Part shown: piece after piece, positions 1-10,446 of the stretch | Numbering within the stretch: position 1 is the first letter of the stretch | Layout of the letters: every line of letters begins with the position of its first letter | Source: a virus | Lineage: Duplodnaviria > Heunggongvirae > Uroviricota > Caudoviricetes | IMG/VR virus record: IMGVR_UViG_2545824644_000014 | Length of the DNA stretch: 22,055 bases | Reading direction: 5' to 3' (one strand) | The notes under the pieces: model-generated | Told to the model about the DNA's origin: nothing | Database searches by the model: none | Seen by the model: only the letters and a program-made list of their open reading frames with translations | Position numbers and translations under genes: made by a program

Positions 1-1002
1 TTACCCTCTATTGTCAAAAGGGTTCAATTCAACAGCAGCCTCTAAATGACCTGGAGCAAAATGCGCATAACGCATAGTCATTTTTATATCGCTATGCCCC
101 AGTATTTTTTGCAACACAAGAATATTTCCGCCCCGCATCATAAAATGACTGGCAAACGTGTGACGTAGCACATGAGTTAATTGCCCATCAGGAAGCTCGA
201 TCTTCGCTCTCTTAATTGCAGCGTCAAAAGCCTCATAACATGGTGAAAATAGCGCTCCTCGTTTTTTGGGAAGCATAGCCTGCAATTGAGGTGAAATCGG
301 TACAGTGCGGTTCTTCTTTCCTTTAGTTTTAACAAATGTGATTCGACCGGGCAGTACTTGAGATTGCTTTAATCCTTCTGCTTCACTCCACCGAGCACCA
401 GTCGCAAGCCCAATACGGACAACAACCCCCAAATCTTTATTCCGTGACTCATCACACGCAATCAGAAGGCGTTCAATCTCATCTACATACAGAAACGCCA
501 GTTCCTTTTCATCCTCACGAAACTTGCGAATACCAGTCAGGGGGTTTTCACCAGACCACTCCCCAAGGCGCTTCAGTTCGGCAAAAACAGCATGTAGATA
601 TGACTGCTCGCGATTAACGGTTGCTTCACTAAGTTTTTTCTTCCCCTTGGGATTCCATTCTCCTGATAGCCTTCTTTCCCGATAAGTGGCAAACATATTT
701 TTGTCAAACTGAGAAGCAAATGGATCTCCCAGCCTGGAACAAATCGCCTCAAGTTTGACTTTGCGCTCTGCACCAGAGGACAAGGTTTTACCGTACATCT
801 CAAACCAACGAGCAATCAACTCAGAAAGACGAGGACCAGAACCATCTTGAAACTCGTCTCCAACTCTACTATTCATTAAACGGCGCTCATAAGAGAGCGC
901 CTCACTTTTTGTCGCAAACTGTTTACGAATGCGTTTTCCCGATGCCCCGTAGGGATAACATTCGCAAAGCCATTTACCTGATGGAATCTTACGAACCGAC
1001 AT
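1..1002 (-). CDS. int: Phage tyrosine integrase (site-specific recombinase), complete 333 aa
   Basis: Full ORF with stop at the window start. C-terminal catalytic region HVLRHTFASHFMMRGGNILVLQKILGHSDIKMTMRYAHF carries the R..H-x-x-R..Y signature of tyrosine recombinases. Terminal position next to the repressor matches P2/186 prophage layout. Confidence 0.9.
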   Translation of the reverse strand: MSVRKIPSGKWLCECYPYGASGKRIRKQFATKSEALSYERRLMNSRVGDEFQDGSGPRLSELIARWFEMYGKTLSSGAERKVKLEAICSRLGDPFASQFDKNMFATYRERRLSGEWNPKGKKKLSEATVNREQSYLHAVFAELKRLGEWSGENPLTGIRKFREDEKELAFLYVDEIERLLIACDESRNKDLGVVVRIGLATGARWSEAEGLKQSQVLPGRITFVKTKGKKNRTVPISPQLQAMLPKKRGALFSPCYEAFDAAIKRAKIELPDGQLTHVLRHTFASHFMMRGGNILVLQKILGHSDIKMTMRYAHFAPGHLEAAVELNPFDNRG

Positions 1003-1007
1003 TTTAG

Positions 1008-1355
1008 TTACTTATCACATAAATCAAATGCAGCCTTAGTGACATCTCCCAGACTCTTTTTTAACCCTGGGGCGGCATCATTATCTAGCCAAAATGGATT
1101 ATTGTTATCTAACGGTAACGCACCAAATGTTTTACCTTTTATTCGAGCCAAACCTGTAAGTGCATATAACTTATTATCGTCAAAATTCATCACATAAGGA
1201 TTACCATCAAGACACTGTAATTGAACCTCATCAGTATTAAATGGCCATACCCCATTGAAACTCTCACGTTCAATAGTTTTAAAAGGCATTGCGACGGCGG
1301 AAAAAGAAAACATAGATAAAAAAGTAACTAATAGTTGAACCTTTTTTACTTTCAT
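1008..1355 (-). CDS. Small secreted protein of unknown function (115 aa, N-terminal signal peptide); lysogeny-side cargo
   Basis: N-terminus MKVKKVQLLVTFLSMFSFSAVA has the basic n-region, hydrophobic core and AxA-like site of a Sec signal peptide. Visibly AT-rich compared with neighbouring phage genes. Same strand as repressor and int. Confidence 0.6.
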   Translation of the reverse strand: MKVKKVQLLVTFLSMFSFSAVAMPFKTIERESFNGVWPFNTDEVQLQCLDGNPYVMNFDDNKLYALTGLARIKGKTFGALPLDNNNPFWLDNDAAPGLKKSLGDVTKAAFDLCDK

Positions 1356-1384
1356 ATCATTACCTCAATTTAGCTCAAGTAAGA

Positions 1385-2035
1385 TTACAAATTAAAAAAC
1401 GCCCTAGAAATGACACCGCCAACCAAAACCCCTACGCAGATAAAGAATATTATTTCTTTTGGATAAAGTCGGATTAATTCTGAAGCACGAAGTCGGACTT
1501 CTGGTAAGGTCGAACTCTCTGTGTGGCTTGATGCCGATTGTTGCTCTAACCACGACAATGCAGACTGTAACTGAGAACGAGTAAGATCGTTTAAACGTCC
1601 TGTACCGAAATTAATATGGCAATACCGCAGAAGTTTTTGTCGAAGTCCACAGTCTTCACTGTTACGTAGTAATAAACTTACAAGAGCCTTACAGGCATCA
1701 TGATCTTTACATCGCTCAAGCATTGCATGCAGAAAACTCTCCGCTGTTTTATATTGATTTACTGTCATATCATCAATACCAGCTACACCAATCTCCGCAT
1801 GTACTTTTTGCCAAATAATAAACGCTTCAGTATTGCTAGCTTCTGCAATAGCAGCAACCAAGCTATTTAGCTCCTTACGCTGAGCCTTAAGCAAAGGGCG
1901 ATCGTCATCATCATTATTCGAAGGGATTGCGATATTGACAGTATGAGAACCATCATATCGCTCTATCTGAATATTCTTTTCGTGAAAATCACGCCCAGCA
2001 ACGCGATTGTTTGAACCGTTTGAGTTGACGGCCAT
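1385..2035 (-). CDS. Hypothetical protein, 216 aa, with a C-terminal transmembrane anchor; lysogeny-side cargo
   Basis: C-terminus IIFFICVGVLVGGVISRAFFNL is a hydrophobic helix. N-terminal motif NNRVAGRDFHE resembles the C-terminal tail of the upstream repressor. AT-rich. Lies between repressor and int on the same strand. Confidence 0.6.
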   Translation of the reverse strand: MAVNSNGSNNRVAGRDFHEKNIQIERYDGSHTVNIAIPSNNDDDDRPLLKAQRKELNSLVAAIAEASNTEAFIIWQKVHAEIGVAGIDDMTVNQYKTAESFLHAMLERCKDHDACKALVSLLLRNSEDCGLRQKLLRYCHINFGTGRLNDLTRSQLQSALSWLEQQSASSHTESSTLPEVRLRASELIRLYPKEIIFFICVGVLVGGVISRAFFNL

Positions 2036-2050
2036 GTCACCTCCCTACTA

Positions 2051-2455
2051 TCACCTACCCTTAGTTTCGTTATAGTCACGACCAGCGATACGGTTATTAC
2101 CACCAGAAATATTTAACTCACGTCCTGATGGCTGAGTTTCCTTTTCACTGATCGCACCTTTTAAAGCCCCAATCACCGCGTTTTTCACATCTAACGAAGC
2201 TGCTCGAAAGCGAGTAATCAACTCCTGCTCATCATCGTTATAAGTTTCAGGTGAGTGAATCCCCAACACAACATACTGAACATCAAGGCCAAAACGAGAC
2301 AGCGCTGCCAAATACGCAGCATCAGGAAAGCTATCTCCTTTCTCATATCTAAGCTGAGTTAGCTTTTTGACTCCACCAATGTCGCTCATGGCAACTTGAC
2401 TAAGTCCCAATCTTTCCCTTTCCTCACGCAACCGCTGACCAATATCATTTTTCAT
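2051..2455 (-). CDS. XRE-family helix-turn-helix immunity repressor (P2 C-like) with a C-terminal extension, 134 aa
   Basis: N-terminal QRLREERERLGLSQVAMSDIGGVKKLTQLRYEKG is a typical XRE/Cro-C1 HTH. Divergent from the Cox-like gene, in the position of the P2 C repressor. Confidence 0.75.
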   Translation of the reverse strand: MKNDIGQRLREERERLGLSQVAMSDIGGVKKLTQLRYEKGDSFPDAAYLAALSRFGLDVQYVVLGIHSPETYNDDEQELITRFRAASLDVKNAVIGALKGAISEKETQPSGRELNISGGNNRIAGRDYNETKGR

Positions 2456-2530: not shown

Positions 2531-2737
2531 ATGAAACAAGTTCTTCACGATACCAGATCACGCATTCCGCGTAACACCGCCACAGGTCCAAGACTGGCAC
2601 TTCGGCTGTCCCTCGAGGAGCGAGCCGTCATTGATGAAATGGCAGCTAAAGAACAACGCTCATCCTCTAACATGGCGCGCATGATCTTCCTTCGCGGCCT
2701 AGAGCTAACCCAGAAAGAACAAAACAAATCTTCCTGA
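2531..2737 (+). CDS. Small basic regulatory protein, 68 aa, possibly ribbon-helix-helix
   Basis: First rightward ORF after the switch. Segment RLSLEERAVIDEMAAKEQRSSSNMARMIF resembles an Arc/CopG-like beta-strand plus helix. Function not established. Confidence 0.45.
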   Translation: MKQVLHDTRSRIPRNTATGPRLALRLSLEERAVIDEMAAKEQRSSSNMARMIFLRGLELTQKEQNKSS

Positions 2738-9173: not shown

Positions 9174-10133
9174 ATGAAAATTTGTATCGACGACGGCTCC
9201 ACCAACATCAAGCTGGCATGGACTGAGAACGGCGAACGCCGCAACGCCATCAGCCCGAACAGCTTCAAGTCTGAATGGTCTGCGCCGTTCGGTGGCACGC
9301 AGCCCGCGAACTACATGCTTGATGGCGTGCGCTATGGTTTTGATCCGGTCAGCGATCGCTTTGTCCAGACGACCGACACGCAATACCAGTACAGCGATGT
9401 GAATGTCATTGCCATTCATCACGCGCTGGTCAAATCAGGCATCACGCCACAGGAGGTGGATGTGGTTGTCACCCTGCCACTGAGCGAGTATTTCGACACA
9501 AACGCACAGCCGGACATGGCCAACATCAACCGCAAAAAAGCGAACGTTATGCGCCCGGTGGAGTACCAGAACGGCGAAGCATTCACTATCCGTAACGTGC
9601 GGGTTATGCCTGAATCCATTCCGGCTGGCTTTAAGGCACTGGCTGACATGAGTCCTTTTGAATCCCTGCTGATTGTGGATTTGGGCGGAACCACGCTGGA
9701 TGTGGCAAAGGTTCAGGGGCAACTGGCAGGTATCAGCCAGGTGTTTTGCGATCCACACGTAGGCGTTTCTCTGATGGCCGATGCCGTACTGTCGGTGATG
9801 GCCACTAACGGTATGCGCACCAGTCACCACATCGCCAATACCATTATCGAACATCGCCATGATGAAGCCTGGCTGCGCCAGCACATCCACAATGACGCGC
9901 ATTACGCCAGCCTGATGGCGGTTATTCGTGAAAAGGAAGAAACACTGAAACAACGCGTGATCCGCGCGCTGGCGGTTTTTTCGGGTTACGGGCGGGTGAT
10001 GGTTGTCGGTGGAGGGGCGGAGATTGTGGCACCCGCTATCCGCGAAGCCTGCGGAGTTAATGCGACTTTCATCGCGGACGGGGTGCCACAGTTTGCTCTG
10101 GTTAATGGGCTGTACGCAATGGACAAGGAGTAA
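9174..10133 (+). CDS. parM: Actin-like ATPase of the ParM/StbA family (type II partition NTPase homologue), 319 aa
   Basis: N-terminus MKICIDDGSTNIKLAW closely matches R1 ParM as recalled (MLVFIDDGSTNIKLQW). Other recalled blocks also align: YSDVNV..HHAL, MPESIPAG, DLGGTTLD, GVSL, VGGGAE, LVNG. Confidence 0.85.
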   Translation: MKICIDDGSTNIKLAWTENGERRNAISPNSFKSEWSAPFGGTQPANYMLDGVRYGFDPVSDRFVQTTDTQYQYSDVNVIAIHHALVKSGITPQEVDVVVTLPLSEYFDTNAQPDMANINRKKANVMRPVEYQNGEAFTIRNVRVMPESIPAGFKALADMSPFESLLIVDLGGTTLDVAKVQGQLAGISQVFCDPHVGVSLMADAVLSVMATNGMRTSHHIANTIIEHRHDEAWLRQHIHNDAHYASLMAVIREKEETLKQRVIRALAVFSGYGRVMVVGGGAEIVAPAIREACGVNATFIADGVPQFALVNGLYAMDKE

Positions 10134-10137
10134 ACCA

Positions 10138-10446
10138 ATGACGACACCAACCAGACGGATAAGTTTCTATCTGAAGCCCGCCGCCGTCAAGAACGAAGGC
10201 GAAGCATGCGCCTGGCTGGACAGCCTTACACCAGAAGCCCGCAAAAGCGGCCAACGCGTGGCTTTTCTGGCCGGGCTGGCACTTCTGAAAATGAATCCGG
10301 CAGAGGCTTACCGACTGGCTGCATGGGCTGACGATGAGTTGGCCGTGGTACAAAACAGAGTAGAACAGAACGCGCCACAACCAGTACCAACCACACAGAT
10401 AACCAGCCAGATGGCCGGGAATATCCGGGCGTTATTTCCCGAATAA
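10138..10446 (+). CDS. parR: ParR/StbB-like centromere-binding adaptor, 103 aa
   Basis: Starts 4 nt after the parM stop with RBS AGGAG. N-terminal RRISFYLKP...AFLAGLALL and the C-terminal IRALFPE parallel R1 ParR as recalled (RTIAFKLNP...LTAGLAL...LRSLFPKE). Confidence 0.65.
   Translation: MTTPTRRISFYLKPAAVKNEGEACAWLDSLTPEARKSGQRVAFLAGLALLKMNPAEAYRLAAWADDELAVVQNRVEQNAPQPVPTTQITSQMAGNIRALFPE

What the first reader, a model, noticed from the sequence alone, without database searches (positions are those of the whole stretch)
1008..2035. Two AT-rich cargo genes (membrane-anchored 216-aa protein plus secreted 115-aa protein) wedged between the repressor and int
In P2-type phages the C repressor and int are normally adjacent and co-transcribed in the lysogen. 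Here two extra genes sit between them on the same strand, so they would be expressed in the lysogenic state. One has a C-terminal transmembrane anchor and the other a Sec signal peptide; both are visibly AT-richer than the phage backbone. That is the usual signature of superinfection-exclusion, abortive-infection or lysogenic-conversion cargo (compare lambda rexAB next to cI). Neither protein matches a family I recognise, so this is the best candidate in the window for an undescribed envelope-acting immunity or defence pair.
Basis: partly seen in the sequence, partly recalled or inferred. Interest (0 to 1): 0.72.

Follow-up and report, generated by a model that had tools for sequence, protein, structure and literature searches.

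The report
Repressor-linked membrane protein plus swappable cargo
The two genes between the repressor and the integrase of this P2-like E. coli prophage are not a pair: one is a swappable periplasmic cargo gene, and the other is a membrane-anchored protein that always accompanies this type of repressor and carries a copy of the repressor's tail peptide, which points to an undescribed way of controlling a prophage repressor.

Summary
Both ORFs are real, on the minus strand, at the stated coordinates. The window is an Sp13-type P2-like (Xuanwuvirus) prophage of E. coli.

The 115-aa protein (1008-1355) is a secreted YebY/DUF2511 protein. It occupies a variable slot next to int. In related prophages that slot holds at least five other genes or is empty.

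The 216-aa protein (1385-2035) is not free cargo. It has one Flk_N unit and a C-terminal tail anchor. In every locus examined it directly follows an XRE repressor that ends in a conserved, predicted-disordered tail. This holds in P2-like prophages of about a dozen enterobacterial genera and in Mu-like prophages of Pectobacterium, Gilliamella and Pseudomonas.

The repressor's last ~17 residues (NISGGNNRIAGRDYNE) recur at the N-terminus of the membrane protein (VNSNGSNNRVAGRDFHE). The two peptides change together between lineages. A related repressor without the tail has no such neighbour.

Best reading: a two-gene immunity module in which the membrane protein acts on the repressor through the shared peptide. 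The mechanism is inferred, not shown. Gene pairs that share terminal motifs in this way are the signature of amyloid signalling.

The parts
1..1002 (-). P2-type tyrosine integrase (333 aa), the last gene of the lysogenic block
   Evidence: Pfam Int_N 5e-32 and Phage_integrase 2.5e-22. phrog_1 at 2e-76. Annotated as ECs_2617 in Sakai prophage Sp13.
1008..1355 (-). Secreted YebY/DUF2511-family protein (115 aa). It is the occupant of the variable cargo slot next to int.
   Evidence: Pfam DUF2511 28.4 bits against a cut-off of 21. phrog_2950 at 9e-40. PDB 7n0j YebY at E 0.003 over residues 34-113. Trp37, Cys48 and Cys113 sit at the same positions as in E. coli YebY, where Cys48-Cys113 form a disulfide (PMC8689200). 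GC 0.351. Only 18 homologue clusters were found, and every context examined is repressor - Flk_N - YebY-like - int.
1290..1355 (-). Sec signal peptide of the 115-aa protein (residues 1-22, MKVKKVQLLVTFLSMFSFSAVA)
   Evidence: Read directly from the sequence: a basic n-region, a hydrophobic core and an A-V-A cleavage motif. E. coli YebY is periplasmic (PMC8689200).
1385..2035 (-). Tail-anchored Flk_N protein (216 aa), the fixed partner gene of the repressor
   Evidence: phrog_5825 at 4e-103. Homologues carry Pfam PF27202 Flk_N. NCBIfam Flk at 8.6e-16, below that model's cut-off. BLASTP matches both repeats of canonical Flk at E 1e-8 and 5e-8. It directly follows the tail-bearing repressor in every locus examined.
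1976..2032 (-). N-terminal peptide of the 216-aa protein (residues 2-20, AVNSNGSNNRVAGRDFHEK), which copies the repressor tail
   Evidence: Local alignment to the repressor tail scores 62, against 18.8 +/- 4.2 for shuffled peptides. phrog_5825 positions 2-20 hit repressor residues 113-131. pLDDT is about 40 in the AF2 model. Column identity is 0.79, compared with 0.83 for the folded domain.
1520..1900 (-). Cytoplasmic helical Flk_N domain (residues 46-172), built from two three-helix units
1394..1462 (-). C-terminal transmembrane tail anchor (residues 192-214)
   Evidence: The highest Kyte-Doolittle 19-residue window scores 2.36 at residues 195-213. AF2 predicts a helix at 192-214. Homologues end within 0-6 residues of this hydrophobic stretch.
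2036..2050 (-). Spacer between the repressor and the 216-aa gene: two further in-frame stops (TAG TAG) and then the Shine-Dalgarno sequence GGAGGT
   Evidence: Read from the sequence. The two ORFs are in the same frame here but are separated by TGA TAG TAG. In other loci the frames differ, so translational read-through is not the explanation.
2051..2455 (-). XRE-family prophage repressor (134 aa) with a conserved C-terminal tail
   Evidence: HTH_31, HTH_19 and HTH_3 hits. NCBIfam RstR/DicA-type. Annotated 'phage repressor protein' ECs_2620. AF2 model: HTH 1-64, helices 74-105, disordered 106-134.
2063..2113 (-). Repressor C-terminal tail peptide (residues 115-131, NISGGNNRIAGRDYNET)
   Evidence: Column identity is 0.79 across 19 enterobacterial homologues, against 0.19 for the linker just before it. 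pLDDT is 40-48. The tail is present in most of the 120 listed repressor homologues, in lineage-specific variants.

Best explanation
The interval holds two unrelated things.

(1) 1008-1355 is a swappable lysogenic-conversion or exclusion cargo gene. It encodes a periplasmic, disulfide-stabilised YebY-family protein. It sits in a variable slot between the immunity module and int.

(2) 1385-2035 is the second gene of a conserved two-gene immunity module. The repressor (2051-2455) ends in a disordered tail peptide. The downstream protein is anchored in the inner membrane by its C-terminus, faces the cytoplasm with one Flk_N helical domain, and starts with a near-copy of that tail peptide.

I infer that the membrane protein acts on the repressor through this shared peptide. 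Either the two peptides pair with each other, or they compete for one partner. That partner could be the Flk_N domain itself, a protease, or an antirepressor. Either way, the amount of active repressor would be set at the membrane. That in turn would set the stability of lysogeny, the induction threshold or immunity.

What is shown: the gene linkage, the peptide match, its co-variation between lineages, and its conservation. What is inferred: physical contact between the proteins and the direction of the effect.
For: Linkage:
- Every tail-bearing repressor examined is followed within about 0-30 nt by an Flk_N tail-anchored gene.
- This holds in the window, Klebsiella, a second E. coli type, Rosenbergiella, Mixta, Izhakiella, Enterobacter, Erwinia, Symbiopectobacterium, Serratia, Citrobacter, Salmonella and Yersinia.
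- It also holds in Mu-like prophages of Pectobacterium, Gilliamella and P. aeruginosa and in two metagenomic lineages.

Negative controls:
- A homologous repressor without the tail, in the same P2-like backbone, has no Flk_N gene.
- P88, which has a P2 C-type repressor, has none either.

Peptide match:
- Cognate tail versus N-terminus scores are 33-62, against 18.8 +/- 4.2 for shuffled peptides.
- Across six lineages, only one of the other 719 pairings scores as high as the cognate one.
- The two copies in the window differ at synonymous sites, so the match is kept at the protein level and not by gene conversion.

Conservation and structure:
- Both peptides are predicted disordered yet are as conserved as the folded domains, while the adjacent linkers are not.
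- The repressor HTH region differs between loci while the tail and the partner gene are kept.
- The Flk_N units resemble the Red-beta C-terminal domain, a known peptide- and protein-binding three-helix bundle.

Cargo slot:
- At least six alternative states of the slot were seen.
Against: - No direct evidence of interaction exists. AlphaFold did not dock the N-terminal peptide on the helical domain (pLDDT about 40), and no complex could be modelled.
- Co-variation among the Mu-like lineages is imperfect. The L033 N-terminus scores well against several tails.
- The lineages sampled are few and related.
- Homology to Flk leaves a flagellar role open.
- Within E. coli carrying this exact repressor, the YebY-like gene is almost always present too (505 genomes versus 515). 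Slot variability is therefore seen between lineages, not within this one.
- Sp13's mitomycin C inducibility already has a more conventional candidate, an epsilon-like derepression gene (PMC2669165).
Confidence: 0.55

Rival explanations
1. The two proteins work together, or each alone, as an envelope-acting superinfection-exclusion or abortive-infection function expressed from the prophage. The membrane protein would block DNA entry at the inner membrane and the periplasmic protein would act in the periplasm.
For: - Both genes lie in the lysogenic operon and both products are in the envelope.
- The YebY-like gene is AT-rich and sits in a slot that turns over.
- The int-to-primase region is a minor defence hotspot in P2-like phages (PMC13586616).
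- In the P2-like Vibrio phage K139, a periplasmic protein, Glo, is treated as an immunity or exclusion factor (PMC4870250). That glo lies near int and the repressor is from my memory of Nesper et al. 1999.
Against: - The two genes are not inherited together across lineages. The 216-aa gene follows the repressor, not the cargo.
- There are no PADLOC hits.
- An exclusion role does not explain why the membrane protein copies the repressor's tail, or why the two peptides co-vary.
Confidence: 0.2
2. The 216-aa protein mimics Flk. Like Flk, it would bind the flagellar type III export gate (FlhA or FlhB cytoplasmic domains) and change the timing of flagellar secretion. Lysogens would then have altered motility, flagellin display or sensitivity to flagellotropic phages.
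For: - It is homologous to both Flk repeats and to the NCBIfam Flk model.
- It has the same cytoplasmic, tail-anchored topology.
- Flk holds the export apparatus in early-secretion mode and may contact FlhA-C (PMC13344023).
Against: - The score of 58 bits is far below the Flk equivalog cut-off of 353.
- It has one Flk_N unit, not two.
- The gene is very common in Klebsiella pneumoniae and Raoultella prophages. I recall these genera as generally non-flagellate; this was not checked here.
- This view does not explain the repressor linkage or the shared peptide.
Confidence: 0.1
3. The peptide resemblance is a historical leftover with no present function. It could come from a duplication at a module boundary or from an old split of a fused gene. 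The 216-aa protein would then act independently of the repressor.
For: In the window the two ORFs are in the same frame and only 15 nt apart. Some homologues carry N-terminal extensions that look like part of a repressor (P0162, P0165, P0184, P0197).
Against: - Both peptides are as conserved as the folded domains, while their linkers drift.
- The copies differ at synonymous sites.
- They co-vary across deep lineages.
- No HTH-Flk_N fusion appears among the 134 representative clusters.
- The reading frames differ in other loci.
Confidence: 0.07

Closest known systems
[quoted passage not shown]
   Same: It shares the Flk_N helical domain, with BLASTP E about 1e-8 to each Flk repeat. It has the same cytoplasmic orientation with a single C-terminal membrane anchor.
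   Different: - It has one Flk_N unit (216 aa), whereas Flk has two (about 330 aa).
- It carries an N-terminal copy of the repressor tail that Flk lacks.
- It is prophage-encoded in the immunity operon and present in hosts I recall as non-flagellate.
- It scores far below the Flk equivalog cut-off.
[quoted passage not shown]
   Same: The 115-aa protein passes the Pfam gathering score. It has a signal peptide, and it has Trp37, Cys48 and Cys113 at the same positions.
   Different: - Sequence identity to YebY is low (E 0.003).
- There are no copC or copD neighbours.
- It lies between a prophage immunity module and int. The YebY authors noted this context in passing (PMC8689200) but did not study it.
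Amyloid signalling gene pairs: fungal HET-S/NWD2, bacterial BASS motifs, and the E. coli Bab/Agp (BASS11) abortive-infection system
   Same: - The genes are adjacent.
- A short motif of about 17-25 residues lies at the C-terminus of the upstream small protein and at the N-terminus of the downstream protein.
- The motif is rich in G, N and Q with alternating hydrophobic residues.
- Motifs tend to be more alike within a pair than between pairs.
   Different: - The partner domains are a DNA-binding repressor and a tail-anchored Flk_N protein, not a pore-forming Bell/HeLo domain and an NLR or TPR sensor.
- Amyloid formation is untested.
- The sequence could not be compared with BASS11, because that sequence is not in the text held.
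Antirepressors and repressor-tail control: P4 epsilon with P2 C, 186 Tum, VP882 Qtip, and the Mu repressor C-terminal ClpXP determinant (all recalled from established literature)
   Same: In each case a second phage protein, or a terminal peptide of the repressor, sets repressor activity without LexA-like self-cleavage. The Sp13 repressor also lacks a peptidase domain, yet the prophage is mitomycin C-inducible (PMC2669165).
   Different: - Here the partner is co-transcribed with the repressor in the lysogen.
- The partner is membrane-anchored.
- The partner shares a peptide with its presumed target.
- None of the listed systems has these three features together.
Lysogen-expressed exclusion genes next to repressors: lambda rexAB, P22 sieA, K139 glo
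   Same: They sit in the lysogenic transcription unit and their products act in the envelope.
   Different: There is no sequence relationship, and those systems share no peptide with their repressor.

Membership tests
Pfam PF27202 Flk_N / Flk | Sequence match to the Flk_N domain | tested here: met
   Homologues from 98% down to 60% identity carry the precomputed PF27202 label. The NCBIfam Flk model matches at 8.6e-16 over residues 37-166. BLASTP matches both Flk repeats. PF27202 is not in the local Pfam copy, so no direct score is available.
Pfam PF27202 Flk_N / Flk | Full-length equivalence to Flk: two Flk_N units, about 330 aa, above the NCBIfam equivalog cut-off | tested here: not met
   It scores 58 bits against a cut-off of 353. 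It has a single unit and 216 aa.
Pfam PF27202 Flk_N / Flk | C-terminal tail anchor with a cytoplasmic N-terminal domain | tested here: met
   The only hydrophobic helix is at residues 192-214 of 216. There is no signal peptide.
Pfam PF27202 Flk_N / Flk | Control of the flagellar secretion-specificity switch | not testable with these tools
   This needs FlgM secretion or class 3 reporter assays. The gene's abundance in Klebsiella prophages argues against it.
DUF2511 / YebY (PF10709) | Pfam gathering score reached | tested here: met
   28.4 bits against a cut-off of 21, covering profile positions 2-87 of 87.
DUF2511 / YebY (PF10709) | Extracytoplasmic location and two conserved disulfide-forming cysteines | tested here: met
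   The signal peptide is read from the sequence. Cys48 and Cys113 align with the YebY cysteines (PMC8689200).
DUF2511 / YebY (PF10709) | AZY-type context (copC/copD neighbours) and modulation of copper import | tested here: not met
   The neighbours are the Flk_N gene and int in all contexts examined. The copper phenotype is not testable here.
Amyloid signalling motif pair (BASS/FASS type) | Adjacent genes sharing a short motif, C-terminal in one product and N-terminal in the other | tested here: met
   This holds in all 13 pairs tabulated.
Amyloid signalling motif pair (BASS/FASS type) | Motifs more similar within a pair than between pairs | tested here: inconclusive
   The cognate pairing ranks second of 720 permutations over six lineages. 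However, one N-terminus (L033) scores high against several tails.
Amyloid signalling motif pair (BASS/FASS type) | Partner domains are a cell-death effector (Bell/HeLo) and an NLR-type or other sensor | tested here: not met
   The partners are an XRE HTH repressor and an Flk_N tail-anchored protein.
Amyloid signalling motif pair (BASS/FASS type) | The motif forms cross-beta fibrils and templates its partner | not testable with these tools
   This needs peptide fibrillation (ThT, Congo red, EM) and foci assays. Monomer AF2 gives low confidence for both peptides.
Known anti-phage defence systems (PADLOC-DB v2) | Match to any defence-protein model | tested here: not met
   Neither cargo protein has a hit at E <= 1.

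The most novel reading that the evidence does not exclude
The matching peptides form a templating or beta-augmentation pair, like the motifs of amyloid signalling systems. The tail-anchored Flk_N protein would be a membrane-sited sensor. When it clusters, its N-terminal peptides would adopt a beta structure that captures the repressor's C-terminal tail. That would pull the repressor off the DNA and switch the prophage on. This would be a self-propagating, LexA-independent induction switch shared by P2-like and Mu-like prophages. A buffering version is also possible, in which capture holds a reserve of repressor at the membrane.
Probability: 0.17. Interest if true: 0.9.

Novelty: new variant of a known kind. 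Interest (0 to 1): 0.66.

Why it matters
- This prophage type is in about one in ten complete E. coli genomes: 519-525 of 5,426, including O157:H7 Sakai Sp13. The same module occurs in Klebsiella, Salmonella, Yersinia, Pectobacterium, Gilliamella and Pseudomonas prophages.
- Sp13 is induced by mitomycin C although its repressor has no self-cleavage domain. That finding was called remarkable and left unexplained (PMC2669165).
- A membrane-anchored partner that shares a peptide with the repressor would be a new way to couple lysogeny to the state of the cell envelope.
- It would also extend the 'shared terminal motif' signalling logic from cell-death systems to transcriptional switches.
- It gives the poorly understood Flk_N domain a second, experimentally tractable context.
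- The slot next to int is a small, well-delimited place to look for new lysogenic-conversion or exclusion genes.

Tried and rejected
- Translational read-through or a split gene. The repressor and the 216-aa ORF share a frame in the window, but three stops separate them and the frames differ in other loci. Rejected.
- Recent gene conversion between the two peptide-coding segments. The copies differ at synonymous sites. Rejected.
- Modelling the repressor and membrane protein together.
- Foldseek against afdb50. The library was unavailable.
- BFVD search. No match reached E <= 0.001.
- PADLOC. No hits for either protein. Among the alternative slot cargo genes it gave only weak BRCT/WYL and coiled-coil hits.
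- Sequence search of solved structures with the 216-aa protein. Only chance transmembrane matches were found.
- The Pfam hits zf-P11 and ELYS for the 216-aa protein are below their cut-offs and were dismissed.
- Phage-record search. Only one of 50,697 records (phage 520873, a prophage-derived record with frameshifts) carries the gene, so no studied phage helps.
- Literature searches for ECs2618-2620, tail-anchored prophage proteins, and Flk in prophages found no functional study.
- The BASS11 sequence could not be obtained for comparison.

Full report
**Observation**

The minus strand of the window carries four genes in this order of transcription:
- an XRE-type repressor (2051-2455, 134 aa)
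- a 216-aa ORF (1385-2035)
- a 115-aa ORF (1008-1355)
- a P2-type integrase (1-1002)

The gaps between them are 15, 29 and 5 nt. The first gap contains TGA TAG TAG followed by GGAGGT. No terminator-like site lies on that strand.

Both disputed ORFs are real genes. They match phrog_5825 at 4e-103 and phrog_2950 at 9e-40.

GC content is 0.351 for the 115-aa gene and 0.410 for the 216-aa gene. It is 0.442 for the repressor, 0.451 for int and 0.529 for the whole window. Only the small gene stands out from its neighbours.

**Source of the window**

The window is a Xuanwuvirus (P88-like, Peduoviridae) prophage inserted next to yecA in E. coli. It matches prophage Sp13 of O157:H7 Sakai, where the genes are ECs_2617 to ECs_2620.

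Among 5,426 complete E. coli genomes, the repressor is in 519, the 216-aa gene in 525 and the 115-aa gene in 507.

**The 115-aa protein**

- It passes the Pfam gathering score for DUF2511/YebY (28.4 bits against 21).
- It aligns with the solved E. coli YebY structure 7n0j.
- It keeps Trp37, Cys48 and Cys113. In YebY the two cysteines form the stabilising disulfide of a periplasmic protein (PMC8689200).
- It has a Sec-type signal peptide.
- The YebY authors had already noted homologues 'between XerD and a CI repressor' in Enterobacteriaceae.
- What the prophage copy does is unknown.
- Only 18 homologue clusters were found. Every context I looked at is repressor, Flk_N gene, YebY-like gene, int.

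**The 216-aa protein**

- Its homologues carry Pfam PF27202 (Flk_N).
- It matches the NCBIfam Flk model at 8.6e-16, far below the equivalog cut-off.
- It aligns with both repeats of canonical Flk at 23-24% identity.
- An AlphaFold model (mean pLDDT 73) shows four regions:
  - a low-confidence N-terminus (residues 1-45)
  - a confident helical domain (46-172)
  - a variable linker
  - a C-terminal transmembrane helix (192-214)
- It is therefore a tail-anchored protein facing the cytoplasm, like Flk, but with one Flk_N unit instead of two.
- A profile search of 1.84 billion representative proteins found only 134 clusters. They are short tail-anchored forms, canonical Flk, and one Rha-like fusion.

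**Context decides the interpretation**

In all related loci the Flk_N gene directly follows a repressor of this family, while the gene between it and int changes. That slot holds:
- a YebY-like gene in the window, Rosenbergiella, Klebsiella and Citrobacter
- DUF8087 in other E. coli, Izhakiella and Symbiopectobacterium
- a 288-aa BRCT protein in Klebsiella and Enterobacter soli
- a 244-aa membrane protein in Mixta
- a 234-aa unknown protein in Salmonella
- nothing in Serratia microhaemolytica and Yersinia

The same repressor-Flk_N pair also occurs in Mu-like transposable prophages. There it sits beside transposase, MuB-like and Ner-like genes, with no int. This was seen in Pectobacterium, Gilliamella, P. 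aeruginosa and two metagenomic lineages.

Two controls point the same way. A homologous repressor that lacks the tail, in the same P2-like backbone, has other genes downstream and no Flk_N gene. P88, with a P2 C-type repressor, has int next to C.

The two genes of the finding are therefore not a pair. The large one belongs with the repressor.

**The shared peptide**

The repressor ends in ...LNISGGNNRIAGRDYNETKGR. The membrane protein begins MAVNSNGSNNRVAGRDFHEKN. The same match appears in every locus, and the sequence changes in step between lineages:

| Lineage | Repressor tail | Membrane-protein N-terminus |
|---|---|---|
| Pectobacterium | QIFNGDISGQFAGNQIIN | QEFNGTAQGQFSSRDIIN |
| P. aeruginosa | QQFNGPVGTVTSGDVVN | QQFHDRVHQVAAGDIKN |
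| Metagenomic lineage (L033) | QTFHGSVGQSVAGSITN | QDFHGEVGQAAGGDINN |
| Metagenomic lineage (L035) | FHGDVGQVVNADT | FDGPVGQAIQADS |

- Cognate local-alignment scores are 33-62, against 18.8 +/- 4.2 for shuffled peptides.
- Over six lineages, only one of the other 719 pairings scores as high as the cognate one.
- The two coding copies in the window differ at synonymous positions. Selection therefore acts on the peptides, not on DNA homology.
- Both peptides lie in regions predicted to be disordered.
- They are nevertheless as conserved (0.79-0.81) as the folded domains (0.77-0.83).
- The adjacent linkers are not conserved (0.19-0.37).
- The HTH region differs between loci while the tail and the partner gene are retained.

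**Mechanism**

What is shown is a conserved two-gene module with matched terminal peptides. I infer that the membrane protein acts on the repressor through this peptide.

Two forms are possible. The peptides may pair directly. Alternatively, both may bind one partner, which could be the Flk_N domain, a protease or an antirepressor. In that case the membrane protein would compete with or present the repressor.

I give functional coupling about 0.55.

The genomic signature is an adjacent pair with a C-terminal motif upstream and an N-terminal motif downstream, matching within the pair. This is the one used to define amyloid signalling pairs. It has experimental support in E. coli for Bab/Agp. 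The partner domains here are different, and fibril formation is untested. I give that specific reading about 0.17.

Sp13 is mitomycin C-inducible even though its repressor has no peptidase domain (PMC2669165). This module could be relevant to that, but an epsilon-like gene is the more conventional candidate.

**Rivals**

- An exclusion or defence role for either protein remains possible (about 0.2). It has no support from PADLOC and does not explain the peptide.
- A flagellar, Flk-like role (about 0.1) fits the homology. It does not fit the gene's abundance in Klebsiella prophages or the repressor linkage.
- A functionless historical repeat (about 0.07) is contradicted by the conservation and co-variation.

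**Novelty**

- I found no paper on this module.
- Only one of 50,697 phage records contains the gene.
- The protein families themselves are known (YebY, Flk_N).
- The int-to-primase region is a known minor hotspot in P2-like phages.
- What appears new is the repressor-linked, tail-anchored partner with a matching peptide, shared by P2-like and Mu-like prophages.

Noticed in passing
window 9174-10446 (+): The GpA-GpQ hotspot of this integrated P2-like prophage carries a plasmid-type actin partition pair. ParM/StbA (319 aa) matches at E 1.8e-82 and 6e-69. A Plasmid_stab_B protein matches at 1.4e-23. Neither has a PADLOC hit.
   Followed up: partly
window 2531-2737 (+) versus 2545-2682 (-): An Arc-like ORF of 68 aa (phrog_3431, 1e-28) lies on the plus strand between the repressor and the cox-like gene. 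RefSeq instead annotates a 45-aa ORF on the opposite strand at the same place.
   Followed up: no
L033 3321-3710: In a Mu-like metagenomic locus, a third protein (129 aa, with a hydrophobic stretch that looks membrane-spanning and no Flk_N match) starts with the same peptide as the local repressor tail and Flk_N protein (MRMEFNGNVGQVAGGDIYNYG). The peptide can therefore sit on more than one membrane protein of the operon.
   Followed up: no
L031 3357-4132: [quoted passage not shown] This is a different tail-anchored protein in the equivalent position.
   Followed up: partly
L004 6647-7513; L015 5647-6513; L011 6668-6790: An alternative slot cargo is a 288-aa protein with an N-terminal BRCT domain (Pfam 5e-5) and a weak WYL-like middle part. 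A 40-aa remnant of it survives in an E. coli locus that now carries DUF8087. This is evidence of turnover in the slot.
   Followed up: partly
whole window / Sakai Sp13: Published data show Sp13 is excised and amplified about 30-fold by mitomycin C although its repressor lacks a peptidase motif. The authors called this remarkable and left it unexplained (PMC2669165).
   Followed up: partly
proteins P0162, P0165, P0184, P0197, P0236: Some distant Flk_N tail-anchored proteins have an extra N-terminal part of about 55 residues, consisting of a helix plus the G/N-rich motif. One protein joins a Rha-like antirepressor N-terminus to a single Flk_N unit without a membrane anchor.
   Followed up: no
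phage-record collection: The module is in about 10% of complete E. coli genomes but in only one of 50,697 deposited phage records. That record, phage 520873, is a prophage-derived record with frameshifts.
   Followed up: no
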